From NCBI GenBank assembly GCA_963751455.1, contig CAVVUN010000009.1, positions 382,889 to 446,888 on the forward strand: DNA of 64,000 bases, given 5' to 3'. Below, one piece after another: positions 34,970 to 50,492 of this stretch. Source of the DNA: Nitrospirota bacterium. GTDB lineage: Bacteria; Nitrospirota; UBA9217. Numbering within the stretch: the stretch's first letter is position 1; every line of letters begins with the position of its first letter. The position numbers were made by a program, and so were the translations under genes. The notes beneath the pieces were generated by a model. The model was given only the letters and a program-made list of their open reading frames with translations, was not told the origin of the DNA and ran no database searches.

Positions 34970-35045
34970 GCGGGTGTAGCTCAGTTGGTAGAGCACAACC
35001 TTGCCAAGGTTGGGGTCACGAGTTCGAGTCTCGCCACCCGCTCCA
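34970..35045 (+). tRNA. tRNA-Gly (GCC)
   Basis: 76 nt cloverleaf: GCGGGTG acceptor, AGCTCAGTTGGTAGAGC D-arm, CAACC-TTGCCAA-GGTTG anticodon arm, GTTCGAG T-loop, encoded CCA. Confidence 0.97.
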
Positions 35046-35069
35046 TTTAAGGCATAGAATATCAGGGAG

Positions 35070-36293
35070 TTAAGCGACACTGCTTAGCTCCTTTTCTATT
35101 TGTTGTGAAGGCTGAGCGGTCGACTGTGCTAGTTTTGTGTCAGTTGGAAGGGCGTATACTTCGTCCATAACGTGAACTGCTTTGGTGAGGTGTGCTGGGG
35201 CGAGATGAGCATACTTCATCGTCTGTTTGAGGCTCTTGTGTCCTAACAGCTTCGAGAGTGTAGCGATATCGATTTTCCCGGACATCATAGCGAGACTTGC
35301 AAACGTATGTCTTAGGTCGTGGAAGTGAAAATCACTTATCTTCGCATTCTTGACCGCAGTATTGAAACTCCGCTTCACACTGTCAAATGGCTTTAAGGTA
35401 AGCGGATCATGGAAGACGTAGGGCGCCAGCTCCTTCTTACCGTCCTTCTCAATAAAGTTGCGAGGGAGCTTGTTTAAGGTTGCCCGGAGAGTCGTATTGA
35501 TCGGTATTTCTCTCCTTTCCCCGTTCTTCGTCTTTTCCAGAAGAATAAATCCGTGCTGCAGGTCCACGTTATCCCATTTCAGCTTTAGGATCTCCCCTTT
35601 CCGCATTCCAGTATGGAGGGCGGTAATAACGACCGGCTGTAAATGAGGATCGCATACGCTGACAAGCTCCTGGGCCTCTTTCGCCGATAGATACCGCAAC
35701 CGGCCGACTTCCTTCGGGAGCTTTACCTTACGGATCTTCTTCAAGACCGTTTCCTCGACCATATCCCACTCGACGGCCTTCGTGAACATATTCTTGACCG
35801 TGTTCATTATCCGGTTGACACTTGAATCTTCCATTGGTCCGGGGGCGAGAGTTTTACCGGATTTAAAGACCTTCGGTTTTCGAAGCCCCTTCTTTCCAAG
35901 GCTTCTCTGTAACTCTTCCATTATATGAAGGTTGAAGCGTCTTATCAGTGTATTCCCTAGTTTGATTATCTCCGGTCTTCCGTTCGCGTCGATAATTGTA
36001 AGTTCACGTTCTTTAAGCCGGTCAATCATGTATCCCTTGACCGTACCAGAGCCCTGGCCTTCGACGGATTGTTTGTATCTGTCTGCCAGTATGTCAAAGC
36101 GATAATCTATAATCTTCTTCGGCTGCTCTGGTTCCTTCCCGGCCTTGATCGAAGCTACTGCCTTTGCTCTCGCGTCTACAGCGTCGGCTTGCTTTGAGGA
36201 AAAAGATGATTTTCGAATCATCTTCCCGGTATGGTCCGGGTAACGATACCACCAAGCGCCGCCGCGTTTATAAACTCCGCGATACTTCGCCAT
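35070..36293 (-). CDS. Tyrosine integrase
   Basis: N-terminal arm-binding-like region, TGMRKGE, TKNG, FHDLRHTFAS, LLGH, TMKYAH; complete R-K-H-R-H-Y set. Confidence 0.95.
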   Translation of the reverse strand: MAKYRGVYKRGGAWWYRYPDHTGKMIRKSSFSSKQADAVDARAKAVASIKAGKEPEQPKKIIDYRFDILADRYKQSVEGQGSGTVKGYMIDRLKERELTIIDANGRPEIIKLGNTLIRRFNLHIMEELQRSLGKKGLRKPKVFKSGKTLAPGPMEDSSVNRIMNTVKNMFTKAVEWDMVEETVLKKIRKVKLPKEVGRLRYLSAKEAQELVSVCDPHLQPVVITALHTGMRKGEILKLKWDNVDLQHGFILLEKTKNGERREIPINTTLRATLNKLPRNFIEKDGKKELAPYVFHDPLTLKPFDSVKRSFNTAVKNAKISDFHFHDLRHTFASLAMMSGKIDIATLSKLLGHKSLKQTMKYAHLAPAHLTKAVHVMDEVYALPTDTKLAQSTAQPSQQIEKELSSVA

Positions 36294-36616: not shown

Positions 36617-36699
36617 TCCCTCACCTCCCTTCTAGCCTGGTCCGATTATAGGTAAATCATTACTTAATGTCAATATAATAAAACGGTCTATAAAGATAC

Positions 36700-36984: not shown

Positions 36985-37016
36985 GTAAAATCCTTATCCA
37001 TCTTCTTCAACTTGAG

Positions 37017-37601: not shown

Positions 37602-37603
37602 AA

Positions 37604-38524: not shown

Positions 38525-38551
38525 ACCTCCGTCTGCGTCTCCTGATCGAAG

Positions 38552-38890: not shown

Positions 38891-38904
38891 ACAGTGGTCT
38901 CCTT

Positions 38905-40488
38905 TTAATTGTTATTCATTGTGTCGTAAATGGGTCCATGATCGTGGTATTCTTCAGCAACGGCCGTGGCCGCTTTCTTTTTAAATTCATCGTAGCCGTA
39001 TACGTCGCCGCCGATATGATAATGAATCTCTGTTTTTCTGTTCTGCCCCTCTCCCGGACGCCAGCCGGTGCCGCCGGACTGCGGGTTCCGGGGATCCTGC
39101 TCGTAGAAGTATTGATAGCCCCGGCCCTCGGCAAGACCGGTTGCTGAATTGGCGGCATAGGTGCCGACTGCGCCGCCTCCGCCTGCACCTCCGTCGAAGG
39201 TTTGTGCCCGAATCTTTGCAACCTGGGCAAGGCCAAGGGCAACCACCGACGCAGCAAGTGCCCAACCATATACGCCGCCCTGCGCAATGGCTTTAGATGC
39301 TCCTTGATATGTGTTGATAATTGCCTCGCTGATTGCTGCAGTCTTGTATATCGAGAACCATTTTCGAGCATGGGCGCCGCCCTCCTGGTACATAAGCGCG
39401 GCTGTCTGAGATATGTTGCCAGCAGTAGCTTGAGCCGACTGAAGCTTCATTTGATCGGACGCCTTCTGGTGTTTTAAAAGGAGCGACTGGCGGGCCATTT
39501 CATTACTGACAAAAAAGGCCGATCTCTCATCTTCGGTCTTGAGCGTGTCGTATTTCAATGCGGCCACGGCGGCGAAGGCTGCAATCTCCACTTGCTGTAC
39601 CTCTTCCATCCTTGCACCGTAGGCCCGATAGAGATCGACCCGTGATTGTTGATATGACACCTCATCGTTCAATGCCTTTTTTCTAGCGTTTTCCTGAAGC
39701 GTAAATTCACGGATCTGGGCGAATTCGAATTCGGAGTAGGCAGGCGACGACGAGGGGGATGGGCCTTTTTCTGATGCCGCAAGGCGTTCACGCATTACTT
39801 TGGTTTTCTTTTCTTCAAGATCAAGTTGGCGTCTGTCTTGTTCGGTAATGAGTCTGGACTGCAGGAGCGACTGTCCGCGAAAAGTAGCTTCTGCAGCAGA
39901 AAAAAGCGTCAATTTATTTCTCATATCGAGAACCTTCTGCTCTTGTTCGAATATGCCGCGCTCAAGCTGATCCTGGTTCCGTCTATATTCAGCTTTTCTA
40001 AGCTCCTCCTCGGCACTTATAAGTTCCTTTGTTTTTTGCAGAGACTTGTCTGCCTGCCCTATCCAAGTCATCGCGGCATCGGCCGCTTTCAGTATTTCAT
40101 CCCGAAGCTTCAGCTTCGCTTCTGCTGCTTTTTTTGCTTCTTCGGCTAGTTTATTGTTACGATCAATCAAGTGAGTAATTACGCTCACTGCGGCTGTGCC
40201 TGCGAGCACCCCAACGCCCAGGGCAGCGCCCCATGCGGGGAAGACCGAGAAGGCCATGCGTTCAACCGAATTCCCGAGTTGACGGGAGGCCTGGCCGTGA
40301 ATACCAATGGCCTGAGCGCTGTTCTGGACGGCGTCGCCGAAGGCGATGATGCCGAGGCGCGAGGCCTCGCTCTGCTTGCCGGCTTTCTCAGTGGCCTTGC
40401 CGGCGTCTTCGACGTGCTTCTTGAAGTTCTGGACTTTGATGGTCCCGTTGTCGTCGACTTCAAGAGTCATGAGGAAGGTTTCTGACAT
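38905..40488 (-). CDS. Tail tape-measure-like protein (527 aa)
   Basis: N-terminal LEVDDNG, Ala/Gly-rich hydrophobic stretch, long coiled coil, C-terminal K.AAISEAIINTYQGASKAIA...AQVAKIRAQ typical of tape measure proteins. Confidence 0.7.
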   Translation of the reverse strand: MSETFLMTLEVDDNGTIKVQNFKKHVEDAGKATEKAGKQSEASRLGIIAFGDAVQNSAQAIGIHGQASRQLGNSVERMAFSVFPAWGAALGVGVLAGTAAVSVITHLIDRNNKLAEEAKKAAEAKLKLRDEILKAADAAMTWIGQADKSLQKTKELISAEEELRKAEYRRNQDQLERGIFEQEQKVLDMRNKLTLFSAAEATFRGQSLLQSRLITEQDRRQLDLEEKKTKVMRERLAASEKGPSPSSSPAYSEFEFAQIREFTLQENARKKALNDEVSYQQSRVDLYRAYGARMEEVQQVEIAAFAAVAALKYDTLKTEDERSAFFVSNEMARQSLLLKHQKASDQMKLQSAQATAGNISQTAALMYQEGGAHARKWFSIYKTAAISEAIINTYQGASKAIAQGGVYGWALAASVVALGLAQVAKIRAQTFDGGAGGGGAVGTYAANSATGLAEGRGYQYFYEQDPRNPQSGGTGWRPGEGQNRKTEIHYHIGGDVYGYDEFKKKAATAVAEEYHDHGPIYDTMNNN

Positions 40489-40494
40489 AAAATT

Positions 40495-40686
40495 TTACTC
40501 CTCGTTGAGGTGTAAAAGCTCGTTCAGTTGGGCATTTAATTCGCGATCTAGTTGCTGGATCTCTTCAGCCGTGGGACGCGGATCAAAGTCCTTGCACCCG
40601 GGCCCGGAGCACAGCACTTGACGACCTGGCTGACTGATATCGAATCCGCAGATACCCTTGGCGTTCCAGATGCACGCAGTGTTCAT
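40495..40686 (-). CDS. Small Cys-containing hypothetical protein
   Basis: 63 aa with four Cys; start overlaps the upstream stop. Confidence 0.5.
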   Translation of the reverse strand: MNTACIWNAKGICGFDISQPGRQVLCSGPGCKDFDPRPTAEEIQQLDRELNAQLNELLHLNEE

Positions 40687-41279
40687 GCCTGTTTTTTGGT
40701 TAGGCCATCGAGTTCCTTCACCAGCGCATCAAAATCTGTTCGACGAGGCACCGGTAGCCGCAAAGCCTCAATCAAAAACCGGGAAAAATCCACATCCGGT
40801 AAACCGATCAGCATCATACCGGACGACAACTTCTCGGCCGCGTATGCCGCATAGATATCCGGGAGTGCCCGCAGACATCGCACACGAAGAGTATTAAATA
40901 TTTTCGAGTAGAGAATTGATTTTGCCACTGCTATTGGATGGCCCGCCCCCGGATTGCCTTCAGCCTCGATCGCGGCAAGAGCCTCTTTGACCGCATCTAT
41001 TTGGATGGTCGTTTCCTCGATTGAATTTTTGAGTTTGGTTCGCTGGCGCGATATAGTGGCTTGATGTTCAGAATCTATTGGCAATATCGCGATTGCACTC
41101 TGTTTGAACTGCTCTGCATTTTCTTCCAGCAGACTTACATTGTTTGTTGAGATTTTCTCCAACTCGACAAGTCGGGCACAGAGCGCCTTCTTTTTTTCGG
41201 TGCGGTTGTACTCACCATCCTCAACTTTGTGATATGCGTTGAGAGCTTGCTCAATGTCGGGCGTTATCGTTATTTTCAT
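40683..41279 (-). CDS. Hypothetical coiled-coil protein
   Basis: 198 aa, strong AGGAGG RBS, heptad-rich N-terminal half. Confidence 0.65.
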   Translation of the reverse strand: MKITITPDIEQALNAYHKVEDGEYNRTEKKKALCARLVELEKISTNNVSLLEENAEQFKQSAIAILPIDSEHQATISRQRTKLKNSIEETTIQIDAVKEALAAIEAEGNPGAGHPIAVAKSILYSKIFNTLRVRCLRALPDIYAAYAAEKLSSGMMLIGLPDVDFSRFLIEALRLPVPRRTDFDALVKELDGLTKKQA

Positions 41280-41306
41280 TGTTCCTCCTTTGATGGAATC
41301 GCAAAG

Positions 41307-42245
41307 TTACTTTTTCGGCGCGAGTGGGTTTTTTGTTCGTGCTTCCTGCTCCGCAAGTCTCGCAGCGCGGCGTTCTGCGAGCGTCTTCGGTTTTAACAAA
41401 TTTCCGAGCCGCATGGGTTTATTTGTCTCAGATTTTTCTATGGTTTGTTCGGGAATTTTATTTGTCCGTGCTTCTCGCTCCGCGAGTCTCTCCGCGCGGC
41501 GTTCTTTGAGTGTCTTCGGTTTAAGCAAGTTACCTAACCGTACGGGTTTTTTTGTCTCCTCTTTTTCGGTCTGTTCGGGTGCTTCGCCGTATGTTTTGAC
41601 GCTCATGCCGTGCTGGGCCCCGAGGTAGACGAGCGAGCCTTCGGTCATCTCGGTACGCGGGCCGCTGCCGCGGTACTCCCAGAACAGGATCGAGTCGTCC
41701 TTCTCATTTCTCATTGGGACGAGGTTCTCTGCGCGAAAACCGATGGAGGCGAAGTCATATATGCCTGTGTCGATGCCGACAATTACCGATTCGGGTACGA
41801 ACTTGACCGGGATGTAGAACGAGCAGGTGAGGAACCAGACCTCGGACTTGCCTGCCGGCAGCTGAAAGCTTTCTCCGGTCTCTGCATTCGCCTGCTGGAG
41901 CGGGAGCTTTTCGATCGTGCAGTCGAAGAACTTTCCGACGCCGCTCATCTGGACGTTTCGTCCGTGGTCGAACATCATGGTCTTCCGGAGCGCCGTGGCC
42001 GCGAAGCGGGTGAGCACCTCCTCGGAGAAGCGCTCGTTGTCGCGGTCGATCGCGTTGTTCGCCATGCGGATCTGGCCGACATAAAAATCTTCGGCTTTAT
42101 AATCCTTGCGCGTGAACTGGTTGATCAGGGCGAGATGCTCGGGCGTGGGTCTGGATGGCGACGACTTGAGGCCAGCAAACTTTATTTGTTTGCTGCCGAT
42201 AATATTCTGGATCGTTTTGCCGCTGCTCTTTGCGTTGTTGTTCAT
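41307..42245 (-). CDS. Phage prohead protease/scaffold-like protein with duplicated basic C-terminal repeat
   Basis: NAIDRDNERFS, FDH, ASIGF, EGSLVYLGAQ resemble caudoviral prohead protease H/S/E motifs. Confidence 0.65.
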   Translation of the reverse strand: MNNNAKSSGKTIQNIIGSKQIKFAGLKSSPSRPTPEHLALINQFTRKDYKAEDFYVGQIRMANNAIDRDNERFSEEVLTRFAATALRKTMMFDHGRNVQMSGVGKFFDCTIEKLPLQQANAETGESFQLPAGKSEVWFLTCSFYIPVKFVPESVIVGIDTGIYDFASIGFRAENLVPMRNEKDDSILFWEYRGSGPRTEMTEGSLVYLGAQHGMSVKTYGEAPEQTEKEETKKPVRLGNLLKPKTLKERRAERLAEREARTNKIPEQTIEKSETNKPMRLGNLLKPKTLAERRAARLAEQEARTKNPLAPKK

Positions 42246-42589
42246 GTAGTCCTCCAGTTGGGTTTGTCGTTGCGGAAAAGCGGCGTCAGTATTTGGCTCT
42301 TCTGTATTTTCACGTTTTGCATGATTTCATCTTTAACCAAACGAAGAGTCTCGACAAAACGCTGTATCTTTTCGTCGCCACAAAATTCTTTGATTAACCT
42401 CTCTACTTCAGCAGTCCTCGAAAAAACAAATTTGACTTCGACAGTTGCGCCAAAACTCTGCCTGACAGTCCGATACGGGATATCAGGAACACCGCTCTTG
42501 ACGAACGCCCACAATTCGTAACTCGTGGTACTGTACGTTCTCTCACCCTCGATTAGTTTGTATTTCATATATGCTCCGTGCTCTCTCAA
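42242..42589 (-). CDS. Hypothetical phage protein
   Basis: 115 aa ORF whose stop overlaps the next start; first gene of the structural-like operon. Confidence 0.6.
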   Translation of the reverse strand: MREHGAYMKYKLIEGERTYSTTSYELWAFVKSGVPDIPYRTVRQSFGATVEVKFVFSRTAEVERLIKEFCGDEKIQRFVETLRLVKDEIMQNVKIQKSQILTPLFRNDKPNWRTT

Positions 42590-42705
42590 ATATTAACGGG
42601 CCCCATCAGAGCCGAGCAGCTGCATATGGACCGGATGGTTGCTTGCGGCGTCAACACCCGGTAAGAAGGAGGACGCTGCTCGGCTCTGATCGAACCCGCT
42701 CCTCA

Positions 42706-42762
42706 AAAAATAAAAAAGCCGAAGACATCGGTCCATCGAACTGGAACCGACGAAACTTCGGC
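42706..42762 (-). terminator. Intrinsic terminator-like hairpin upstream of the structural-like operon
   Basis: Minus strand GCCGAAG...CTTCGGC followed by TTTTTTATTTTTT. Confidence 0.55.
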
Positions 42763-43068
42763 TGCGGTATTTTCTTTTTTTTTGTTCATTGTCGCCCCTC
42801 TATATGGCTATGACGCCAGAAGTTATCATTTCGCTACCACACAAGGCAAGCGAACCTTTTCGAGGAGTTTCGTAAGTCCTCAAAAAAAATAATTAGAAAA
42901 TGGCACAAGTTTTGCTTTTTTGTGGTAAAAATATGTAGGCTTTGAGGGTAAAGATGAACCTTCGGTTAGTTACTTGGCGATAGTCCTGCGGTATGGCGTT
43001 CAATGAGGCGGTGAAGTACGATCGCTGCTTGGTGTAGAATTCGATCTCAATTAATGGGAGGGACTTTA

Positions 43069-44367
43069 TTAGCCATGATGAGCATCCTTTGCAGCACGTT
43101 TTAGGCGCGTCACAATATCTACGGTTTCTTCGCTTAATCTCGTTTTAATTCTTTGACTGGTGCAATTCAATGTTTCGGGCAGCACTGTTTCAATGATGTA
43201 GGTCTCCGGATCATCTAATAAATTACCTAACTCGCTTTTTTCGACATCGATGAGTGGCACAAGTCGACGGTCGATTGATTTCACTTTTATCTTCTTTTTA
43301 TTCCAGTCATTATCAACCCTGTGAATTATTGTTTCGCCGAATGCGTCTTTGTATCGATCGCGAATATCCCATGCAATCGCTAACAGAAAATGCTTAAGGC
43401 CTGTCACATATAACAACTCAGGAATGTCGCGCCTTTTCTTGTTCCCATCATAATGATTCTCAATTTGCTGTATTAAAGGATAGGCAGCTTTCTGCTCATC
43501 AACCGTCCCATGAAAATAATCCCGAAGCCTTCTCTCAAATTGCACCCGTAAAAAAACGATATTGTCATCTTGCGATTGAAAAAAATCAGGCAGTCTTTGC
43601 AGAGCGTCAAATATGTCTTTGTCTACTCAAGCACGTCCGAGCTCATATTCTTTTTGTTGTTCAGTAGTAAGGCCCTTAGTACTTTTGGTTTTTTCCATAT
43701 AATCGAAAAGCTTTTGGTAATGCAATCTCGGAAACCTAAAAGAATATCGAGGGGTCATAGAAGTATACGTGCCGTCAGCGATATCGCGCCGGATTTGTTT
43801 TTGAACATCCTCAAAACTAAAATCCGCCTCAAATCCATCGCTAATACCGTATCTAAAATACAGTGGTTTCCAATAGCCATCCTTAATCATTTTTACAGCT
43901 TCCTGATTTTTGGCAAGGTCATTAATATTTTTTTTAGCGATGATACTTGGGGTGAATGTTGCGTGACATTGTTTATGGGCCGATGATGACGACATCAACA
44001 CAAACCCATCGGAATGAAATTTTTCTATTGCCTTATTCGTGCCGCCATACCACGCACGCTCTTGAGGCAAAGCTACACGTGAAAGGAGTTTTATTGTTTT
44101 GTGCCACGTAGCAACAGGCAGGGATAACGCACTACTATGGAAAAATATTTTTATGAGGTCTTTTCGTTTACTCTTACTGTATGGACCTTTAAGTATTTCT
44201 TGTAATTTTACATTTGCATCAGTAAGGTTGCGCGCTGTTTGTTTTTCATAGTCTGCTGCAATTTCATCGATGATGTTTTCTACAAATTTATCGTGACTAA
44301 TTTTTTTATTACGTAAAAGTGTAAAATTTCTGTCATATATCTCTTCAGCTCTCTCGGTATCTATCAT
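43069..44367 (-). pseudogene. AT-rich cargo gene interrupted by one in-frame TGA (43627-43629)
   Basis: ORFs 43627-44367 and 43069-43545 share a frame; the gap reads ELGRA*VDKDIFDALQRLPDFFQSQDDNIVFLRVQFE with no other stop. Confidence 0.6.
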
Positions 44368-44518
44368 CTCCGCCTCCGTGCGGTCTCCGAGTGGAAGGAA
44401 CAGGGGAAGGCCGATCGGAGTTTCGGCCGTGTCGTCCGGGGTTCGAAGTCCCGGACTATCCCCCTTTGCTACACAACTCTATCATAAACAGAAATTCAGT
44501 TCAATAAAAACTCCTACG

Positions 44519-45544
44519 TCAAACGTGATTCGTTGCGCTGCCTGAAACGTGTCCCGCGTGATTGTGCGTGACAGGCTCTGCATTGCTGATATTAATAGCG
44601 GATTCTGGCTCAGTCCATACGCGGCCAAATTCAAGCCAGTACTCGTGCCAGGACCGGTATTCTTTATGTATCCTCTCGCGCCGCGTGATGTATCGCGCTG
44701 CGGTCTCCAGGTTCTCCCATCCCATGCGCTGCATGATCGCGAACACGTCATAGCCGCGCACGTGCCGCGCGTCGCAGGCATGCGATGCACGGAGCATATG
44801 ACATTTTATTTTCGCCTTCCGAAGCCCTGCCCGTTTTGCAAGTTTCTTGATCAGCATATCGAGAGACCTCGTGGTCAGTCGTTTGCCGCTGGACCGGCCG
44901 CTATGACTAACCAGCAGGGGATCTCCGGTCCTTGCTCCGGCTGAAACGCGCGCGATAAGCAGTTGCCGGATGAACATGGACGGCGCGCGCCACAGATAGA
45001 CGGATCTGCCGGCGCCGCGCTTGGTTTTTGGAATTACCAGATCCATCTCCTTGCCGTCGTCCTGGATATGATCGATATTAAAATTTACGATTTCGGAAAC
45101 GCGAAATCCGGCGAACGCTCCGAATATTAAAAAGCAGGCATCCCTAAGGCCCATATCTGTTGTGACGTCGATCGTACCGAACAGCCGCAAGATTTCTTCG
45201 CGTGTGAAAGTCTGCATGAACGGTTTAGTCGACCGCATACGCGGGATCGAAGCTGAGGGATCATCATTCATTTCTCCCGTGTATCGTAAAAATCTGAAAT
45301 AAGATTGTAACGCTATCAGCTTCGTGGTTCGTGTTTGGTTTCCATTGCCGCGGAGAAAACAATATTCAAGATACCTTTCGATATCGCCTCGGGTTGCCGG
45401 TCCGTCCAGTGCATTGCCATCTCTCCAGTTTAGGAACTCTTCGACATGTCGACGATAGGCGGACACGGAAGAGGAAGCGAGTCCTTTAAGAACGGCCAGG
45501 TGCTTTTCAAAATTTTGAAGCACTAAATTCCGGTCCGTCATCAC
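44519..45544 (-). CDS. XerC/XerD-like tyrosine recombinase (catalytic residues intact)
   Basis: SAM-like N-domain, GFRVSE, TKRG, CHMLRASH, MGW...TAARY. Confidence 0.9.
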   Translation of the reverse strand: MMTDRNLVLQNFEKHLAVLKGLASSSVSAYRRHVEEFLNWRDGNALDGPATRGDIERYLEYCFLRGNGNQTRTTKLIALQSYFRFLRYTGEMNDDPSASIPRMRSTKPFMQTFTREEILRLFGTIDVTTDMGLRDACFLIFGAFAGFRVSEIVNFNIDHIQDDGKEMDLVIPKTKRGAGRSVYLWRAPSMFIRQLLIARVSAGARTGDPLLVSHSGRSSGKRLTTRSLDMLIKKLAKRAGLRKAKIKCHMLRASHACDARHVRGYDVFAIMQRMGWENLETAARYITRRERIHKEYRSWHEYWLEFGRVWTEPESAINISNAEPVTHNHAGHVSGSATNHV

Positions 45545-45996
45545 TGTTTCTCCGCCTCGTTGATGATATTGTTAATTTGCGTCTTGCTGAGCCTGAAGCG
45601 TTCGATCAATTCCTGGTAATTTTTCCCATGATAAAGATTACGAATCTTCGTGTTGCGTTCGATCCGGAATAGAACTTCGTGATCGGGGAAACGGATCCTG
45701 GTCCCGCCAAGTTCGACCATGATCTTGTTCATGATCGCCCGGCCCGATGCGCGGCCGAACTCCTCGCAGGTGCTGCGCCACAGTTGCTTAAAATTAGACC
45801 CGCTGGAAGCAAGCGGGTCCGGCCCGGGCTTCGGGACCCAAATCCTGCATCGGCCGGCCTGGGCAACAATATGCCGTATGATTTTTTTCCCTGGCTCATC
45901 TCCAAAATCAGCGACGATGCTCTGAAACAGCCGCCTGACTGCTTCGCGGTTACGTCGTTGTGAAACGATTTTAGCTCCGATCGGCACGCCCTCCAT
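45541..45996 (-). CDS. Mor/C-family transcription activator-like protein
   Basis: ELGGTRIRFP...ERN.KI...Y.G.N..EL..RF.LS..QI..II Mor signature; dimerisation segment appears duplicated (FG...G..I....G..RI..P twice); start uncertain. Confidence 0.75.
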   Translation of the reverse strand: MEGVPIGAKIVSQRRNREAVRRLFQSIVADFGDEPGKKIIRHIVAQAGRCRIWVPKPGPDPLASSGSNFKQLWRSTCEEFGRASGRAIMNKIMVELGGTRIRFPDHEVLFRIERNTKIRNLYHGKNYQELIERFRLSKTQINNIINEAEKQ

Positions 45997-46942
45997 GGGA
46001 CCATAATTTTGAAAACTCAGACCAGTAGTCCTCAAGTGAGTTAAATTTATCTTTTTGATCAACGTGGGGAAAGTCCTGGAAAGCCCGGTCAATCTGCGTG
46101 TAGCTCTTGTACCCCATACGTTCTTTTATCTGCGGTGCATCAAAGCCGATAATATACCGAAGGTCCCAAAGATGCGATATGCGGAGCATATTTGTTTTTA
46201 TTACCGGCTTCATGATGCCTGCGGACTGGGCGAGCGACTTAATACAATCGTCAAGGGCGTGCGGTGTCAGCCGGCGATTGCCTCGAGGCTCGCCACTCTT
46301 TTTGTAGCTTACCAGGAGCGGATCTCTAAATCCCGCTCCTTTGTCCATGCGAGCATGTGTTAACGAGCGAACAATTGCGCTCGGTTGTTCCCAAAGCGAA
46401 ACACTGCGTCCGTTTACGGCAAGATCGATGCATCTTCCACGTTGAAGCAAATGAACGTTCTGGAGATTCGCTGAAACAATTTCTCCGAGACACAAGCCTG
46501 CCATTGCTCCCAGAACCAGGAAGACGGCATCCCGGAGACCTTTCTCCCGGGTAATATCGCAGGCCGCGAACATTTTTAAGATCTCGCTCTGCTCGAATAC
46601 TGCCAGGGGTCCATTCTTTCGCGGCGGCCGGCGGATGCTGCCAATTGGATTTGCAGGGATAACCCCGGTCTCAACCAGGTGTCGGAAGTAGTTTTCTATG
46701 CCCGCCATTTTGCGCGAGAGGGTAGAATTTCCGTTTCCATGCCGCTGCAGGTAGCGAAAGAACCCCTCGGCATCCTTGCGCAGTTCTAAGGGCTCCAGAG
46801 ACGCAAGCGAGGGTTTCCCCTGACGCCATGCCAGGTATTCCGCTGCACTTCTCCGGTAAGAGCCGGTAGACGAGGCCAATAAGCCATCTGCCAGCAACTG
46901 TTTTTCAAATTGGTCAAGATGTTCGTTCTGTTCACTGTTCAT
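45971..46942 (-). CDS. XerC/XerD-like tyrosine recombinase paralog with degenerate active site
   Basis: Collinear with 44519-45544 but has GLCLGE (R to C), TNMLR (H to N) and MGY...IDRAF (no Tyr at the nucleophile position). Confidence 0.82.
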   Translation of the reverse strand: MNSEQNEHLDQFEKQLLADGLLASSTGSYRRSAAEYLAWRQGKPSLASLEPLELRKDAEGFFRYLQRHGNGNSTLSRKMAGIENYFRHLVETGVIPANPIGSIRRPPRKNGPLAVFEQSEILKMFAACDITREKGLRDAVFLVLGAMAGLCLGEIVSANLQNVHLLQRGRCIDLAVNGRSVSLWEQPSAIVRSLTHARMDKGAGFRDPLLVSYKKSGEPRGNRRLTPHALDDCIKSLAQSAGIMKPVIKTNMLRISHLWDLRYIIGFDAPQIKERMGYKSYTQIDRAFQDFPHVDQKDKFNSLEDYWSEFSKLWSHGGRADRS

Positions 46943-47380
46943 AGTTTCCGCTCCCCCCGCGCCCCCCACTTTTTCAAAAAAAGAAGCATTAAAAAATCAC
47001 TTTCAAAAAAGGTTTTAGATATACCCCCAATTTATAACCAGCAATGAGGGCGCTTGTCGACAAATAATCAAATATTTTTCAAGGGGGGTGGTCCTGAGAA
47101 CCGGACCACCGACCACCAAATTCAAAACGAACCGCACAATTCTAAATAAATAAACCATGTAAATCATTGAAATTGTGTTCTCAATAAACCTGCAACCGCA
47201 CAGTTTAATAATTATGTGCGGTAACAATTCGGCTGAATTTCGGCTGAATTCCCCTCATGAGAGGATATCACCAAGACAGACAGCGCACAGATAACAAAGT
47301 TGACCAATGCTGATGCTAAAATAATAAAAAAAATTATAATTAAATTTAACTTCTTAGAATCAGTTTTATAAGAAATCTAA

Positions 47381-48181
47381 TCAATTAAAAGTCTTCAGCT
47401 GCCTACCCATCGCATCGCCTGACGGATTGTTGCCGCCGTGGCTCGCCTTGAAGTTTGCCACTTCGAGCACAACATACCGACTAACAAACTCCTTGTGTAA
47501 TCGATCACCGTTTTGGCCGTGTAATTCGATAATCTTTTCACGTCCGCCAAGATCGAAAAAGATCTTTGCTGACAAAGTGTCACTGAGAATGACCTTGTCG
47601 GTTGATTTCACAACAATCGTCTCGAAAGTGGTCCAGGCTTCTTCCGCTTTTTCGAAAGCAATTTTTTCAATACTGGTTGGGCGCTTCCCCCCTTCTTTTG
47701 GAGAAGGAGAAGGAGAAGGAGAAGGAGAAGGAGAAGGAGAAGGAGCATTGCTAATTGCATGTGGAACTTGTGCCGCTTGCATGCCATTGGCATTATTATT
47801 TTTTGCTTTGTTATTCCATCTCTTAGAGGCGTTTTGACGGGCAATCTTTGAACGCTTCTTGAAAGAAACAACCCACGGTTGATGTTCCTTCCAATCGTGT
47901 ACTTTTAAGAATTTTTTACCGGATTTTTCGCCTTTATCTAGAAATTTCACCTGATCGCTGGCAAGGAATTCTATGAATTGCGAGCAATCGGCATCCCGGC
48001 CGCAAGCCAGTTGCATGCGGTATTCATCCCATCCGCTCAGGTCTCCGTCTTGCTGATGCTCAGCACAGTATCTCCATAGCTTCAAGAGCGAAACTATCCC
48101 GCTATCGCCGTATTCTTTATGGAGTCTCTTGGTTTTATGGTGATCGAAAAAAGACAGTTTGACCCGAAAGTCATCGAGCAT
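47381..48181 (-). CDS. Phage replication initiator/replisome-organiser-like protein
   Basis: FFDHHKT.RL...G...L.KLW N-domain, VHDWKEHQP, A.KRW, then NAPSPSPSPSPSPSP linker typical of phage initiators. Confidence 0.7.
   Translation of the reverse strand: MLDDFRVKLSFFDHHKTKRLHKEYGDSGIVSLLKLWRYCAEHQQDGDLSGWDEYRMQLACGRDADCSQFIEFLASDQVKFLDKGEKSGKKFLKVHDWKEHQPWVVSFKKRSKIARQNASKRWNNKAKNNNANGMQAAQVPHAISNAPSPSPSPSPSPSPSPKEGGKRPTSIEKIAFEKAEEAWTTFETIVVKSTDKVILSDTLSAKIFFDLGGREKIIELHGQNGDRLHKEFVSRYVVLEVANFKASHGGNNPSGDAMGRQLKTFN
47702..47744. repeat. (GAAGGA)n hexamer repeat encoding the Pro-Ser linker
   Basis: About seven tandem copies, directly visible. Confidence 0.85.
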
Positions 48182-48467
48182 AGGACTCTTTCCTCCGTTG
48201 GCCGACAGTTCCCCTCGATCCCGTGCCGCACCGATCGCTCATGGCCATGACGTGTAGCTTTCCTGAACCATTGATCGTCTGAATAATGGCTGCCTCGTGC
48301 TCCAATGCCAGGTCCGGGTGCAGCCGTCGGACTTCTTCGCCTGCTTTGCGAGCTGTAGCGGCCATGCGTGAAAAATGCTCAGGGCAAGAATTAATGACCG
48401 GCCGCGGTGTTTCACGGTGCCAGAATGCGTAATGCTCGGCTTCTTTGTCGCAGTATGAGCACTTCAT
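48171..48467 (-). CDS. Small hypothetical protein with CxxC...CxxH motif
   Basis: MKCSYC...SCPEH; GGAGG RBS before ATG 48467. Confidence 0.55.
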   Translation of the reverse strand: MKCSYCDKEAEHYAFWHRETPRPVINSCPEHFSRMAATARKAGEEVRRLHPDLALEHEAAIIQTINGSGKLHVMAMSDRCGTGSRGTVGQRRKESYAR

Positions 48468-48478
48468 TGTTGCCTCCC

Positions 48479-49213
48479 TTAAATCGCGGCTAATTCCGCC
48501 ACATCGGCCATTTCTTCGTCCGTTGGCCCCTGATATATCGCTGTGGACTGAATCGATTTGTGCCGTGCGAATTTCTGGATCTCGGTCAACGAAGCGCCGC
48601 GTTCCTTCAGTCGCTTCAGGCAAGCGTGACGAAGCGAATGGACCGTATAGAGCGCCATCTGTCTGCCGTCGACCTCGACACACAGACCCGCCCGGATCAT
48701 CCAGAATTCAACAAGCTCATTGATGGACCGTAAGGAAAGCCGGACACCTCTACGGGAAACAAACAAGGGAGCATCATCGCTGATGGATTCCCTCCGGGTG
48801 TTCAGTTTGTGCCCGATGAACGTCTTCAGTACCCGCTGGATGTGTCTATTGATAGGCACATGGCCGCAGCTCCCCATCTTCGCAATTTCAGGCTTCACCC
48901 ACAGCCTGGCTTGGTTCCTCACATCGCCGACACTCAACCCGGCAAGTTCTGCCCGCCGGAGCGCCAAATTCAGGAACGTCTCGATGATCACGTAATCACG
49001 CTCTGCCTGGCGCCCGATCGTGGTATCACTGCCCCTTACTTCCTTGATCGTTTTGAGAAGCTGCCGCTGCTCATCGGCGGAAAGAAATTTGTACTGAGCT
49101 CTGTTTCGCTGCTTCCGGATCCGGCCAGGCTCCAGGACAAGCCTTTCGTTTGGGCCATAGATGCCTTTGAATTCCGCTGACGTTTCTCTGCTTGTCGCTA
49201 ATATCGTTGTCAT
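48479..49213 (-). CDS. Tyrosine recombinase, catalytic domain only
   Basis: LALRRAEL, AKMG, VHSLRH, ARH.SIQSTAIY; lacks the N-terminal SAM-like domain; GGAGG RBS before ATG 49213. Confidence 0.88.
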   Translation of the reverse strand: MTTILATSRETSAEFKGIYGPNERLVLEPGRIRKQRNRAQYKFLSADEQRQLLKTIKEVRGSDTTIGRQAERDYVIIETFLNLALRRAELAGLSVGDVRNQARLWVKPEIAKMGSCGHVPINRHIQRVLKTFIGHKLNTRRESISDDAPLFVSRRGVRLSLRSINELVEFWMIRAGLCVEVDGRQMALYTVHSLRHACLKRLKERGASLTEIQKFARHKSIQSTAIYQGPTDEEMADVAELAAI

Positions 49214-49243
49214 GATTGCCTCCATATCATGTGCCTCAGATTA

Positions 49244-49299
49244 CTCTCCGGCCCAGGCCGAGGCGGGCTTTTCGGGCTGCAGACCCTATGACCGGAGAG
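49244..49299 (-). ncRNA. Structured leader RNA, copy A (C4/CI antisense-like)
   Basis: CTCTCCGG/CCGGAGAG closing stem enclosing two hairpins; near-identical to copy B. Confidence 0.55.
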
Positions 49300-49339
49300 C
49301 GTGACAATGTGACACGCGTGACTGCGCGTTACGCTGCCT

Positions 49340-49912
49340 TTACGGCTGTTCCTTGAACTGTTTGTCCACGATCACTTTTACCAATACGGATAAATCCTCA
49401 AAGCGGATCCCTAACAACTCCAGAGCTTGCCACACGTGTTTTTTGAAGAACGATTCGTCGACATTGTCACTTTCGCATGACACCTGGATTACTTCGATAA
49501 GTGATTGGATTTCAATCAGCCTGATCGGAACAGCGTTCAGAATGTCATAGTCGTTTTGACTCATCAGAACAGGATGGAGAATATCCGCTACCTCGTGCTG
49601 CTTTTCTGTTCCGGACGAAGGGCGAGATGCCGGCGATAAGCTTTCCGCCGTGGCCATCTTCGAGCTGGTACGATTTATAATTTCTGTGAATTCATCATCA
49701 GGCATTCCAGCGACAGATGCCGCGATTAAAATAATGTACGCGCTCTCGCTAAACTGTGTTTTTTTGTTGCTGCTGATTTTGTCTTTGATACGGTGACGCT
49801 GTTCGTGAGACAACGTCGCCAAAAATGAAATCATGTTCTTCAATCGCGTAATTGCCTTTTCGTCACTGCTGACAGCCTTTGAATCTTTACTCGTTTTAAC
49901 TTTGCTTTTCAT
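49340..49912 (-). CDS. Hypothetical protein
   Basis: 190 aa, GGAGG RBS, first gene of the element's minus-strand array. Confidence 0.65.
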   Translation of the reverse strand: MKSKVKTSKDSKAVSSDEKAITRLKNMISFLATLSHEQRHRIKDKISSNKKTQFSESAYIILIAASVAGMPDDEFTEIINRTSSKMATAESLSPASRPSSGTEKQHEVADILHPVLMSQNDYDILNAVPIRLIEIQSLIEVIQVSCESDNVDESFFKKHVWQALELLGIRFEDLSVLVKVIVDKQFKEQP

Positions 49913-49944
49913 GGTAGCCTCCGTATCATGATTGCCTCAGGTTA

Positions 49945-50001
49945 CTCTCCGGCCCAGGCCGAGGCAGGGCTTTTCGGGTTGCAATCCCTAGGACCGGAGA
50001 G
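49945..50001 (-). ncRNA. Structured leader RNA, copy B (C4/CI antisense-like)
   Basis: Same closing stem and hairpins as 49244-49299. Confidence 0.55.
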
Positions 50002-50167
50002 ATCAATAAGTTTCAAATTACACAAAGCAACTGTGCTACTTGCTGTGTTAGTAGAGGGGTTCCAAAAGAAGGAAAATAGGTACATCCCCTCTTTTCGTCT
50101 AAAGCAGCAAGGTCAATAAAAGCACATAGAAGGGAAAGGCGGGGAGTTACAGCGGGTTATTTGGGCG

Positions 50168-50230
50168 ACCTTGCCAAGGTTGGGGTCACGAGTTCGAGTC
50201 TCGCCACCCGCTCCATTCAAGGCATAGAAT
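50168..50230 (+). repeat. att site: duplicated 3' part of tRNA-Gly plus 15 downstream bases
   Basis: ACCTTGCCAAGG...CCCGCTCCATTCAAGGCATAGAAT matches 34998-35060. Confidence 0.95.
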
Positions 50231-50492
50231 GACGGAGTTAACCACATCGGTTAACTCCTTTTCTATTTGCATGTCAGTTTTGTGCTTGAGTATGTTCCCT
50301 TTCAACGCGCCAGTCACCTATCGCTCAGTCTATCTTTTATCTCCTCTAAAGCGCATGCCTTCGTAAAAATGCAACAACCCATTCTGACTCTGCCCGAGTC
50401 GGATTGCTTCCCATGGCATAACATCATCAAGACCTTTTCCAATGAGCGATCTATTTGTACAGCAATAAAGAATAGGCAACCCGTCAACACAA

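What the first reader, a model, noticed from the sequence alone, without database searches (positions are those of the whole stretch)
44519..49213. Three extra tyrosine recombinases in the element, including an active/dead paralog pair flanking a Mor-like activator
Seen: besides the integrase, 44519-45544 keeps R, HxxR, W and Y; 45971-46942 is a full-length paralog lacking R, H and the Tyr nucleophile; both share an unusual aromatic C-terminal tail (YRSWHEYWLEFGRVW vs FNSLEDYWSEFSKLW); 48479-49213 is a catalytic-domain-only enzyme. The pair and the activator overlap as one translational unit. Known: XerC/XerD work as a heteromer and RIT elements carry three adjacent recombinases, but this layout matches neither. 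Inference: a heteromeric recombinase with a non-catalytic partner, or a recombinase fold reused as a regulator or genome-processing factor in place of a terminase.
Basis: partly seen in the sequence, partly recalled or inferred. Interest (0 to 1): 0.8.

Follow-up and report, generated by a model that had tools for sequence, protein, structure and literature searches.

The report
Live and dead recombinase pair around Mor
A 15-kb mobile element in a tRNA gene carries two related recombinase genes on either side of a Mor-type activator gene, one intact and one stripped of its catalytic residues, and the two likely act together on a three-part DNA site just upstream to separate copies of the element and to control their own operon; this is a variant of known recombinase systems, not a new kind.

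Summary
On the minus strand of a 15.2-kb element in tRNA-Gly (attL 34998-35060, attR 50168-50230) lie recB (45971-46942), Mor (about 45541-45996) and recA (44519-45541), translationally coupled, with a short recombinase, recC (48479-49213), upstream.

recA and recC keep the full catalytic set. recB keeps only the second Arg, yet its fold is predicted intact (pLDDT 91.5).

- The recB-Mor-recA layout recurs in 3 other loci, and the A and B copies form two well-supported clades.
- The other 7 B-clade proteins keep Tyr and both Arg, so full catalytic death is private to this element.
- The aromatic tail is family-wide.
- The commoner layout is a single rec followed by Mor, including full phages with ordinary terminases, so a role in place of a terminase is not supported.

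A conserved control region lies upstream of the operon: a 28-bp dyad, an IHF-like site and a third half-site 64-65 nt on. Half-sites co-vary between loci.

My reading, inferred at about 0.4: a TnpI/IRS- or Cre/lox-like resolution and autoregulation module, with recB as a non-catalytic DNA-binding subunit. No binding or recombination was tested.

The parts
34970..35060 (+). tRNA-Gly(GCC) 34970-35045 and attL, the 63-nt direct repeat 34998-35060
   Evidence: ARAGORN; Rfam tRNA 65.3 bits; repeat family D2, 98% identical to 50168-50230
35070..36293 (-). the element's integrase (407 aa)
   Evidence: phrog_1 integrase E=2e-63
44519..45544 (-). recA: intact Xer-like tyrosine recombinase of the A clade, downstream of Mor
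   Evidence: Pfam PF00589 and PF02899; catalytic R, K, HxxR, W, Y; A clade support 100/99
45541..46092 (-). Mor-family activator; the ORF runs to 46092, the likely start is the ATG at 45996
   Evidence: PF08765 E=1.4e-13, 51.2 bits against a cut-off of 24.9; phrog_532 late activator; start and stop overlaps; in L017 the upstream frame carries a stop, so the N-terminal extension is not coding there
45971..46942 (-). recB: full-length paralog of the B clade without Arg-I, the Lys hairpin, His-II, Trp or Tyr; Arg-II kept
   Evidence: 38% identity to recA, E=6e-67; residue table; AF2 model pLDDT 91.5, best PDB matches Cre, XerA, XerH and lambda Int over about 300 columns
46953..47110 (-). conserved leader and promoter region: G6-CGC-G6 with GGAG (46953-46967), TATAAAT (47030-47036), TTGAAAAA (47075-47082), and a hairpin with C-run (47083-47110)
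   Evidence: alignment of 15 loci; the G-run occurs once per locus, at the start of the operon; RNAalifold finds only the invariant C-run:G-run pairing, with no covariation
47131..47138 (-). third half-site (TGTGCGGT), 64 nt after the right arm of the dyad
47160..47172 (-). IHF-like site TTTCAATGATTTA, one mismatch to WATCAANNNNTTR, midway between the dyad and the third half-site
   Evidence: 8 of 10 loci with at most 1 mismatch at a fixed offset, against 0.73 expected in shuffles; the consensus itself is recalled
47195..47222 (-). 28-bp dyad ACCGCACATAA-TTATTA-AACTGTGCGGT, the candidate core site
   Evidence: the only copy in the 5.7-Mb genome
47227..47248 (-). two 11-nt direct repeats, TTCAGCCGAAA and TTCAGCCGAAT (CGGAAT-type repeats, present in most related loci)
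47381..48181 (-). replication initiator-like protein (RepI)
   Evidence: phrog_9474 E=2.1e-10; homologs precede the control region in L016, L017, L020, L048 and L049
48479..49225 (-). recC: short tyrosine recombinase with the catalytic domain only, catalytic residues intact
   Evidence: PF00589 E=2.9e-23; alignment to XerD; 78 relatives at E<=1e-10, all 168-254 aa
49233..49296 (-). int-alpA-like RNA motif directly upstream of recC; a second copy at 49933-50001, a weaker third at 44385-44466
   Evidence: RF02996 27.8 and 23.0 bits, below the gathering score of 35.8; repeats D5 and D8; relatives above the gathering score: L013 50.4 bits, L049 43.2 bits
50168..50230 (+). attR, a repeat of the tRNA 3' end

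Best explanation
The operon encodes an intact Xer-like recombinase (recA) and a catalytically dead but structurally intact paralog (recB). They likely act together on the conserved three-part site just upstream (dyad 47195-47222, IHF-like site, third half-site 47131-47138). recA would do the strand exchange that resolves replicated or multimeric copies of the element. recB would serve as a DNA-binding accessory subunit that also would regulate the recB-Mor-recA promoter.

Shown by calls or sequence:
- the genes and their catalytic states;
- the conserved recB-Mor-recA order;
- the two clades;
- the conserved site architecture, with half-sites that co-vary between loci;
- the single copy of the dyad in the genome.

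Inferred:
- that the rec proteins, rather than Mor or another factor, bind these sites;
- that the reaction is resolution between two copies of the element;
- that recA and recB work in one complex;
- that site occupancy controls transcription.

Context: the module comes from a family of uncultured phages in which a single rec sits in the recB position, between the replication genes and the late (terminase, portal) genes. The window's element and its small relatives lack recognisable terminase, portal and capsid genes, and are probably satellites or reduced derivatives of such phages.
For: 1. Catalytic states.
- recA and recC are intact. recB has lost 5 of the 6 catalytic positions.

2. recB is maintained, not decaying.
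- The ORF is open.
- It keeps 34 of 42 non-catalytic columns that are at least 90% conserved, like its sisters (36/42, 38/43, 36/41).
- Catalytic positions kept, 1 of 6, against 34 of 42: Fisher p=0.004. With only the 3 catalytic columns that pass the 90% rule, p=0.12.
- Under neutral substitution the ORF stays open in 8.5% of simulations at 90% identity and in 0.5% at 60%.
- The AF2 model has pLDDT 91.5 and matches two-domain recombinases (Cre, XerA, XerH, lambda Int), prob 1.00, TM about 0.55.

3. The pair is conserved.
- B-type, Mor and A-type in this order in the window, L017, L020 and L048.
- Mor followed by A-type in L022 and L023, where the contig is cut upstream.
- B clade 99/98 and A clade 100/99, 8 rows each, in a tree of 37 rows. 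Four partial rows were left out.

4. The B clade is relaxed.
- Longer end branches: 0.32-1.12 against 0.003-0.44.
- His-II replaced in 4 of 8 B rows and Trp in 3 of 8. In the A clade only L022 differs.

5. Site architecture.
- A dyad plus a third direct half-site at 64-65 nt in 5 of 19 control regions under strict rules (0.05 expected) and in 10 of 19 under relaxed rules (0.95 expected).
- The half-site sequence changes together at all three positions between loci: TGTGCGGT, CGCGGTT, TATGGTA, GTGAAGTA.
- An IHF-like site at a fixed offset in 8 of 10 loci.
- The dyad geometry, 11-6-11 or 8-bp arms 12-13 bp apart, fits a tyrosine-recombinase core. It does not fit the 16-bp, 5-bp-arm Mor site of Mu (abstract of PMC4390567).

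6. The sites travel with rec, not with the replication protein.
- The same half-site occurs next to RepI (window, L016, L048) and next to a 1000-aa primase (L011, L013, L021).

7. Mor is a poor candidate for the binder.
- Its recognition-helix stretch is the same in the window and in L049 (TQINNII), although their half-sites differ (TGTGCGGTT against GCGCCATT).
- B-type N-domains are the fastest-diverging part: mean pairwise identity 39%, against 62% in the A clade.

8. The likely partner site is another copy of the element.
- The dyad is unique in the genome.
- It is not used as attP. The control-region-to-rec junction is contiguous in the window, which is flanked by att repeats, and in L020, whose integrase lies beside tRNA-Thr. 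It is also contiguous in L003, L021, L048 and L049, which lie inside contigs of 80 kb to 2.35 Mb.

9. Precedent.
- In TnpI/IRS of Tn4430, a core IR1-IR2 and accessory DR motifs share one 9-bp sequence, and the accessory motifs are bound by additional, regulatory TnpI subunits (abstract and introduction passages of PMC2847244).
Against: - No binding, recombination or expression data exist.
- The two arms of the window's dyad are the same in their outer 8 bp. This gives no sign of two different proteins on one core, as in XerC/XerD.
- Two of the four recB-Mor-recA loci (L017, L020) show no clear dyad, only direct repeats of other motifs.
- In L010 the control region and leader lie 2.5 kb upstream of rec, at the start of the operon. 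This fits a transcriptional operator as well as, or better than, a recombination site.
- A B-type protein works without an A copy in L049, so the pairing is not obligatory.
- The centre of the dyad is itself conserved between loci, which a crossover region need not be.
- Half-site class does not follow either rec clade cleanly. Three classes occur within one tight B subclade.
- The tripartite pattern was found in only 10 of 19 regions.
- The shuffles used were mononucleotide shuffles.
Confidence: 0.4

Rival explanations
1. recB is a stand-alone transcription regulator, a recombinase fold that kept DNA binding and lost chemistry, like MrpR of SPbeta. It would bind the dyad and the third half-site to repress or time the recB-Mor-recA operon. 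recA would work independently of it, as resolvase or as a second integrase.
For: The sites always sit at the start of the operon, upstream of the putative -10, even where rec lies 2.5 kb downstream (L010). recB is the first gene after the sites. The fold is retained and the catalysis lost. MrpR is a published case of a recombinase fold that lost its recombinase function and acts as master repressor on a repeated element (abstract of PMC10516654).
Against: 39 of the 40 family rows in which the position can be read keep the Tyr nucleophile, and 40 of 41 keep Arg-I, including the 7 other B-clade rows. The family as a whole is therefore under selection for catalysis at some site, and the only candidate site seen is this one. 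MrpR is not detectably related by sequence.
Confidence: 0.25
2. The three-part site is bound by another factor (Mor, a host protein or an unidentified element protein) and is only a promoter control element. The recombinases act on sites not identified here.
For: There is no direct evidence of who binds. No canonical sigma-70 promoter is found there, which suggests an activator-dependent promoter. Mor is co-inherited with rec in 20 of 24 loci. GTCAC-type repeats lie just after the A gene in L017 and L048.
Against: The Mor recognition helix is invariant where the half-sites differ. The Mu Mor site is a 16-bp element with 5-bp arms (abstract of PMC4390567). No consistent 5-6-5 dyad lies upstream of the -10 in the 15 loci. 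L002 and L010 have a rec and the leader but no detectable Mor. The motif does not recur upstream of late genes in L011, L012, L013 or L021.
Confidence: 0.17
3. recB is a redundant duplicate on its way to loss, a young pseudogene whose frame happens to be still open, and it has no function.
For: Full catalytic loss is private to this element: 1 of the 8 B-clade rows. recA can supply the chemistry. L003 shows that rec genes of this family do decay; there the gene is broken into pieces.
Against: The 323-codon frame is open. Conserved non-catalytic positions are kept as well as in catalytic sisters. Five separate active-site changes, including an in-frame deletion of the hairpin, with no damage elsewhere, are unlikely under neutrality. 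The model is confident. The conserved ribosome-binding G-run lies in front of the gene.
Confidence: 0.08
4. The recombinases replace a terminase as the genome-processing factor for packaging.
For: No terminase, portal or capsid family was detected among the element ORFs that were scanned: 19 of the 20 ORFs I list for the element, together.
Against: Full-phage relatives with the same rec-Mor module have a portal, and L011 a matched large terminase, directly downstream. Lack of packaging genes is the usual state of a satellite or a reduced element.
Confidence: 0.02

Closest known systems
[quoted passage not shown]
   Same: A tyrosine recombinase whose site is an inverted-repeat core plus adjacent accessory copies of the same binding motif. 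The extra subunits on the accessory motifs are regulatory, not catalytic. The proposed reaction is resolution between directly repeated sites.
   Different: Here there is one accessory half-site, 64-65 nt away, with an IHF-like site between. TnpI has two tandem DR motifs and, in the passages read, no host bending protein. Here the accessory role may have passed to a separate, dead paralog. The setting is a phage or satellite, not a Tn3-family transposon. No sequence membership was tested.
XerC/XerD at dif, cer and psi
   Same: The closest solved and curated relatives by sequence: XerD, XerA and XerC-like. Two paralogous recombinases. The dyad can be read as 11-6-11, like dif (recalled).
   Different: Scores lie far below the NCBIfam cut-offs (112.6 bits against 329.6 for XerD). 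The arms of the dyad are alike, so there is no evident two-protein core. The genes lie on a mobile element, with a Mor gene between them. That one Xer partner alone can suffice for catalysis is recalled, not tested here.
Cre / loxP of phage P1
   Same: A phage-borne recombinase with a single site next to its own gene. Cre structures are the best fold matches of the recB model. Phages with plasmid prophages carry 1-3 Xer-like recombinases that are believed to resolve dimers (passages of PMC8026635).
   Different: 13-14% identity in the fold alignment. Accessory half-site and IHF-like site. Coupled to a Mor activator. The elements here integrate through a separate integrase.
MrpR (YopR), master repressor of SPbeta (PMC10516654; abstract read)
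   Same: A tyrosine-recombinase fold in a prophage that has lost recombinase function and binds a repeated DNA element.
   Different: Not detectably related by sequence. recB has close catalytic relatives and an intact paralog in the same operon. A repressor role is not shown here.
RIT (recombinase in trio) elements
   Same: Several tyrosine recombinases in one element.
   Different: The three genes are not adjacent: Mor lies between two of them, and RepI and the control region separate the third. recC has the catalytic domain only. The definition of RIT elements is recalled, not tested.
Short tyrosine recombinases (FimB/FimE-type invertases) and the Rfam int-alpA motif
   Same: recC is about 245 aa and consists of the catalytic domain only. 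It has a weak match to the tyrosine-type DNA invertase models (36 bits). An int-alpA-like motif lies directly upstream.
   Different: It is far below the invertase cut-off of 222 bits. No flanking inverted repeats were seen. The window's motif copies are below the Rfam gathering score.

Membership tests
Tyrosine recombinase superfamily (Pfam PF00589) | Catalytic domain detected above the Pfam gathering score | tested here: met
   recA 67.6 bits and recC 82.9 bits against a cut-off of 27.1. recB scores only 22.1 bits, below the cut-off. Its membership rests on 38% identity to recA and on the fold.
Tyrosine recombinase superfamily (active enzyme) | Catalytic residues R-K-H-R-H/W-Y all present | tested here: met
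   recA and recC: all present.
Tyrosine recombinase superfamily (active enzyme), applied to recB | Catalytic residues R-K-H-R-H/W-Y all present | tested here: not met
   recB has C, a deleted hairpin, N, R, Y and A at these positions. Only Arg-II is kept.
XerC / XerD equivalogs (TIGR02224, TIGR02225) | Score above the curated NCBIfam cut-off | tested here: not met
   recA 112.6 bits against 329.6 (XerD) and 93.2 against 335.15 (XerC). recB 67.2 bits, recC 63.0 bits.
Mor/C transcription activators (PF08765) | Mor domain above the gathering score | tested here: met
   51.2 bits against 24.9, residues 111-182; phrog_532 and phrog_836 late transcriptional activator.
TnpI/IRS-type resolution site | Inverted-repeat core plus accessory copies of the same motif next to the recombinase gene | tested here: met
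   Dyad plus third half-site in 10 of 19 control regions against 0.95 expected, with spacing 64-65 nt; window 47131-47222.
TnpI/IRS-type resolution site | The recombinase binds the motifs and resolves directly repeated sites | not testable with these tools
   Needs binding and two-site recombination assays.
Dead-recombinase regulators (MrpR-like) | Recombinase fold with lost catalysis | tested here: met
   recB.
Dead-recombinase regulators (MrpR-like) | Sequence or family relation to MrpR; repressor activity on a repeated operator | tested here: inconclusive
   No MrpR chain appears among the PDB sequence hits of recA or of the B-clade profile, nor among the Foldseek rows shown. Repressor activity cannot be tested here.
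Heteromeric recombinase (XerC/XerD-like pair) | The two paralogs are conserved together | tested here: met
   4 loci with both copies around Mor, and two clades of 8 rows each. One B-type protein stands without an A copy (L049).
Heteromeric recombinase (XerC/XerD-like pair) | The two proteins bind each other and bind different arms of one core | not tested
   The complex prediction was never accepted. The arms of the window's dyad are alike.
RIT elements | Three adjacent recombinase genes in one unit (definition recalled) | tested here: not met
   The order is recC, a small ORF, RepI, the control region, recB, Mor, recA.
Rfam int-alpA RNA (RF02996) | Score above the gathering score of 35.8 bits | tested here: not met
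   Window copies 27.8 and 23.0 bits. Relatives pass: L013 50.4 bits, L049 43.2 bits.
Phage satellite (P4- or PICI-like, in the broad sense) | Integrase, own replication protein and regulator, but no terminase, portal or major capsid; related full phages exist | tested here: inconclusive
   No packaging or capsid family was found among the element ORFs scanned. Full-phage relatives were found. No helper was found in the same genome. Mobilisation cannot be tested here.

The most novel reading that the evidence does not exclude
A so-far undescribed module of uncultured phages and their satellites joins a Xer-like recombinase to a Mor activator behind one IHF-bent, three-part site. The same nucleoprotein complex would both resolve genome copies and gate the switch to late transcription. 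In one lineage the job has been split between a catalytic paralog and a dedicated non-catalytic paralog that reads the fast-changing half-sites. That would be a natural example of a tyrosine recombinase evolving a separate regulatory subunit.
Probability: 0.25. Interest if true: 0.7.

Novelty: new variant of a known kind. Interest (0 to 1): 0.5.

Why it matters
Paralogous recombinase pairs, accessory non-catalytic subunits and dead recombinase folds used as regulators are each known. What is new here is their combination.

- **An unnamed recombinase family.** It is small: 25 proteins at E<=1e-20 in a 5.8-billion-protein search. In most loci seen, it is wired to a Mor activator and a conserved control region.
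- **A step caught in progress.** In one lineage a second copy has taken over the chemistry. The first copy is shedding catalytic residues but keeps its fold.

If the model is right, the system would show how a regulatory subunit of a recombinase arises. It would also offer a compact recombinase/site pair with a built-in accessory site, and it would mark a family of satellite-like elements in poorly studied bacteria.

If it is wrong, the finding reduces to a redundant duplicate in a mobile element.

Tried and rejected

- Complex prediction of recA with recB (alignments A5, A6): never accepted, because the queue was full. No verdict exists.
- The search of protein representatives: not open.
- The look-up of sequencing runs for 44400-50300: none was listed and no RNA holder was listed.
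- Earlier findings of the scan: nothing on record.

**Searches that found little**
- First viral scan with recB alone: no relative. The alignment-based scans then worked.
- tblastn of recA against 50,697 phage records: one weak hit, 29.8% identity over 69% of the query. The family has no close relative in that collection of deposited phage genomes.
- Rfam search of the element: no family matches the conserved leader.

**Structure and folding**
- First AF2 model of recB, from 8 sequences: poor, pLDDT 52.8. Replaced by the 37-sequence model.
- RNAalifold on the leader of 15 loci: only the invariant C-run:G-run pairing, with 0 compensatory pairs. An RNA structure is neither supported nor excluded.

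**Ideas rejected**
- A Mu-type Mor site (5-6-5 dyad) upstream of the -10: seen by eye in the window, but found at a comparable position in no other of the 15 loci. Treated as chance.
- Sigma-70 consensus scan: no promoter listed in the control region. A -35-like TCGACA 18 nt before TATAAA was seen by eye only.
- The idea that the two int-alpA-like repeats flanking 49340-49912 are recombination sites for recC. Dropped because the motif also precedes unrelated operons (L049) and its consensus ends in a ribosome-binding site, which fits a 5' leader.
- Half-sites as replication iterons. Rejected because the same half-site occurs with unrelated replication proteins.
- rec as the element's integrase. 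Rejected for the window and for the 5 relatives taken as integrated, where the site-to-gene junction is uninterrupted.

Full report
**The element.** The window holds a 15.2-kb element inserted in tRNA-Gly(GCC). The tRNA lies at 34970-35045. A 63-nt direct repeat of its 3' end, 98% identical, marks attL at 34998-35060 and attR at 50168-50230. A 407-aa integrase lies next to attL at 35070-36293 (phrog_1, E=2e-63). All element genes I assign run on the minus strand.

In transcription order they are:
- a 190-aa ORF (49340-49912);
- recC (48479-49213/49225);
- a small ORF (its homolog in L020 has 91 aa);
- a replication-initiator-like gene (47381-48181; phrog_9474);
- a 410-nt non-coding region;
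- recB (45971-46942);
- Mor (ORF 45541-46092; PF08765 at 51.2 bits against a cut-off of 24.9);
- recA (44519-45544);
- unknown ORFs;
- a protein related to a head-region protein of full phages (41307-42245; phrog_16951);
- a tape-measure-like protein (38905-40488);
- the integrase.

No terminase, portal or capsid family was found among the element ORFs scanned.

**The observation.** recA has the SAM-like N-domain and the catalytic domain. Aligned to XerD and XerA and to its own family, it has Arg-I, the hairpin Lys, HxxR, Trp and Tyr.

recB is 38% identical to recA over 322 residues (E=6e-67). It has Cys for Arg-I, a deleted Lys hairpin, Asn for His-II, Tyr for Trp and Ala for the nucleophile.

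recC is a catalytic domain with about 45 extra N-terminal residues and a full catalytic set.

The Mor stop overlaps the recA ATG. The likely Mor ATG lies 26 nt inside recB. The longer Mor ORF that the ORF finder lists is probably not real, because the same frame carries a stop in L017.

**Relatives and layout.** I found relatives with a protein search, scans of genome, viral and metagenome contigs with an alignment, and a search of 401 genomes of the window's phylum, of which 8 had a match at E<=1e-30, the window's own included.

The common layout is one rec gene followed by Mor. Of 24 loci with readable downstream sequence:
- 20 have Mor within about 600 nt;
- 1 has it 2 kb further, after two inserted ORFs (L016);
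- 3 show none (L002, L010, L019).

In full phages (L011, L012, L021) the module sits between a primase-helicase of about 1000 aa and the head genes: portal in all three, a matched large terminase in L011, then a homolog of 41307-42245. This speaks against the idea that the recombinases stand in for a terminase.

The order recB-type, Mor, recA-type is found in the window, L017, L020 and L048. L022 and L023 show Mor followed by an A-type gene, with the upstream side cut by the contig end. P0009 and P0010 probably share one 7.8-kb contig, but I did not see that contig.

L049, an element of the same bacterial family with the same gene order as the window, has a B-type gene and Mor but no A copy.

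The window's genome holds no further family member, Mor or 41307-type gene, so no resident helper phage was found.

**Phylogeny and catalytic residues.** I built a maximum-likelihood tree of 37 full-length rows, leaving out four partial rows. The A copies form one clade (8 rows, support 100/99) and the B copies another (8 rows, 99/98).

Each clade is nearest to single-copy rec genes that sit upstream of Mor in their own elements. The pair is therefore old, or was assembled from two lineages. It is not a recent tandem duplicate.

B end branches are longer (0.32-1.12) than A end branches (0.003-0.44).

In the table of 41 rows:

| Position | Rows with the residue | Exceptions |
|---|---|---|
| Tyr nucleophile | 39 of 40 readable rows | the window's recB |
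| Arg-I | 40 of 41 rows | the window's recB |
| His-II | 36 of 41 rows | 4 B rows (N, R, D, T) and L022 (Q) |
| Trp/His-III | 36 of 40 rows | 3 B rows (Y, F, F) and P0012 (V) |

So the B clade is relaxed at auxiliary catalytic positions, but complete death is private to this window.

**Is recB decaying?** The evidence says no:
- It keeps 34 of 42 non-catalytic columns that are at least 90% conserved in the family. Its catalytic sisters keep 36/42, 38/43 and 36/41.
- The contrast with 1 of 6 catalytic positions kept gives Fisher p=0.004. With only the three catalytic columns that pass the same 90% rule, p=0.12.
- In neutral substitution simulations the frame stays open in 8.5% of runs at 90% identity and in 0.5% at 60%.
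- With a 37-sequence alignment, AlphaFold2 gives a confident two-domain model (mean pLDDT 91.5). An 8-sequence alignment had failed (pLDDT 52.8).
- Foldseek matches the model to Cre, XerA, XerH, IntI and lambda Int over about 300 columns (prob 1.00, TM about 0.55).

**The control region.** The 410-nt region upstream of recB is conserved in architecture across loci whose rec proteins are only 30-45% identical. From 5' to 3' in the window it holds:

| Feature | Window coordinates |
|---|---|
| Two 11-nt CGGAAT-type direct repeats | 47248-47227 |
| 28-bp dyad ACCGCACATAA-TTATTA-AACTGTGCGGT | 47222-47195 |
| IHF-like site | 47172-47160 |
| Third half-site, in the orientation of the right arm | 47138-47131 |
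| Hairpin ending in a C-run | 47110-47083 |
| TTGAAAAA | 47082-47075 |
| TATAAAT | 47036-47030 |
| G6-CGC-G6 followed by GGAG and the ATG | 46967-46953 |

All three copies of the 8-mer in the 64-kb window lie in 47131-47222. The count alone is not unusual, since 21 of 100 shuffles have three or more copies somewhere. The clustering is what stands out. The gapped dyad occurs once in the 5.7-Mb genome.

The pattern 'dyad plus third copy' was found:
- in 5 of 19 control regions under strict rules (0.05 expected from shuffles);
- in 10 of 19 under relaxed rules (0.95 expected).

The third copy always lies 64-65 nt after the right arm. The half-site differs between loci (TGTGCGGT, CGCGGTT, TATGGTA, GTGAAGTA) but changes at all three positions together.

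A match to the IHF consensus lies at a fixed offset of 21-23 nt after the right arm in 8 of 10 loci, with at most one mismatch, against 0.73 expected. The consensus (WATCAANNNNTTR) is recalled.

**Who binds the sites?** This is inferred. Four lines of evidence bear on it:
- The half-sites do not follow the replication protein. The same motif stands next to RepI in the window, L016 and L048, and next to a primase in L011, L013 and L021. L011, L018 and others have separate iteron-like repeats further upstream.
- They do not recur before late genes.
- Mor is a weak candidate. The Mu Mor site is a 16-bp element with 5-bp arms (abstract of PMC4390567). No such dyad is conserved before the -10. The Mor recognition-helix stretch is the same in the window and in L049, although their half-sites differ.
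- The N-domains of B-type proteins are the fastest-changing part of the family: mean pairwise identity 39%, against 62% in the A clade. This fits a protein that tracks changing half-sites.

The geometry, with 8-9-bp arms 12-13 bp apart (11-6-11 in the window), is that of a tyrosine-recombinase core.

Points against this reading:
- L017 and L020 lack a clear dyad.
- In L010 the whole region lies 2.5 kb before rec, at the operon start.
- The centre of the dyad is itself conserved.
- Half-site classes do not follow the rec clades cleanly.

**Mechanism proposed.** The best-fitting known model is TnpI/IRS of Tn4430. There a core of inverted motifs is flanked by accessory copies of the same motif. 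Additional regulatory TnpI subunits bind those copies and impose resolution selectivity (PMC2847244, abstract and introduction).

Cre/loxP is the phage counterpart. Phages with plasmid prophages often carry 1-3 Xer-like recombinases that are believed to resolve dimers (PMC8026635, passages).

I propose that the ancestral single rec bound the core and the accessory half-site, with a host bending protein between them. It would have resolved multimers of the replicating genome and, by occupying the region upstream of its own promoter, tuned rec-Mor expression at the switch to late genes.

In the window the intact recA would do the chemistry. recB would be the non-catalytic DNA-binding subunit. 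The partner site would be another copy of the element, because the dyad is unique in the genome.

The dyad is not the attP. The control-region-to-rec junction is uninterrupted in the window, which is flanked by att repeats, and in L020, whose integrase lies beside tRNA-Thr. It is also uninterrupted in L003, L021, L048 and L049, which lie in contigs of 80 kb to 2.35 Mb. MrpR of SPbeta shows that a recombinase fold can end up as a pure repressor (PMC10516654, abstract), and that is the main rival reading for recB.

**recC.** It belongs to a broad family of short recombinases: 78 proteins at E<=1e-10, all 168-254 aa. The lack of an N-domain is therefore a family trait.

recC-like genes accompany the rec module in L003, L011, L013, L048, L049 and L050.

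An int-alpA-like RNA motif lies directly upstream. It is below the Rfam gathering score in the window (27.8 bits), but above it in L013 before the recC homolog (50.4 bits) and in L049 before another operon (43.2 bits). The function of recC remains open.

**Limits.**
- No experiment or expression data exist.
- The heteromer could not be modelled.
- Sample sizes are small: 8 B rows and 4 loci with the full recB-Mor-recA order.
- The shuffles were mononucleotide shuffles.
- The names IHF consensus, XerD residue numbers, dif geometry and RIT definition are recalled.
- I found no description of a rec-Mor module in print with the searches. Those searches cover open-access papers and bioRxiv only.

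Noticed in passing
window 46953-47110: A conserved leader upstream of recB. It has a hairpin ending in a run of 6-7 C, then TTGAAAA, TATAAAT about 46 nt further on, AAAACC(C)TTTTT, and an invariant G5-6-N3-G5-6 just before the start codon. It is present once per locus in 19 loci. No Rfam family matches it and no covariation was found. What the C-run and G-run do is unexplained.
   Followed up: partly
window 49233-49296, 49933-50001, 44385-44466 (minus strand): Three int-alpA-like (RF02996) motifs stand before three transcription units: recC, the 190-aa ORF, and the ORF at 43627-44367. The first two are about 90% identical direct repeats flanking the 190-aa ORF. The window copies are below the gathering score; relatives L013 and L049 score above it.
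   Followed up: partly
window 41307-42245: The first 218 residues are 60% identical to a 420-aa protein that follows the portal in the full phage L012 (phrog_16951; the L011 homolog has a weak major-head match). The C-terminal part is replaced by two tandem copies of a basic unit encoded by 110-nt repeats (41329-41438 and 41458-41567). It could be a truncated head or scaffold protein kept by a satellite.
   Followed up: partly
window 34998-50230; L020; L049; L048: A family of 13-15-kb integrative elements shares RepI, the control region, rec, Mor, a tape-measure-like gene and an integrase, but has no recognisable terminase, portal or capsid. L020 sits at tRNA-Thr and the window's element at tRNA-Gly. 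They are likely satellites of the phage family represented by L011, L012 and L021. No helper phage was found in the window's genome.
   Followed up: partly
window 45541-46092 (Mor): By eye, the protein holds two similar units (FGDEPGKKIIRHIVAQAGRCRIWVP and FGRASGRAIMNKIMVELGGTRIRFP) before the helix-turn-helix. This suggests an internal duplication of the Mor N-terminal subdomain. The units are shared by the closer relatives in the alignment.
   Followed up: no
L003 9998-11039: In this Thermodesulfovibrionales MAG the rec gene is broken into two or three pieces while Mor and the leader remain. It is a decayed copy of the module.
   Followed up: no
L019 3233-4579: A full rec gene is followed at once by a 113-aa ORF that is only a SAM-like N-domain of a second rec, and then by an HTH_3 protein instead of Mor.
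   Followed up: no
L017 3406-3460; L048 11936-11990: Just after the A-type gene, both loci carry three or four GTCAC(G/A) repeats within about 45 nt. This could be a binding site specific to the A copy. It is not seen in the window.
   Followed up: no
L021 12676-13830: A 384-aa protein joins a second Mor-like domain to a repressor-like domain (phrog_836 and phrog_4738), two genes downstream of the first Mor.
   Followed up: no
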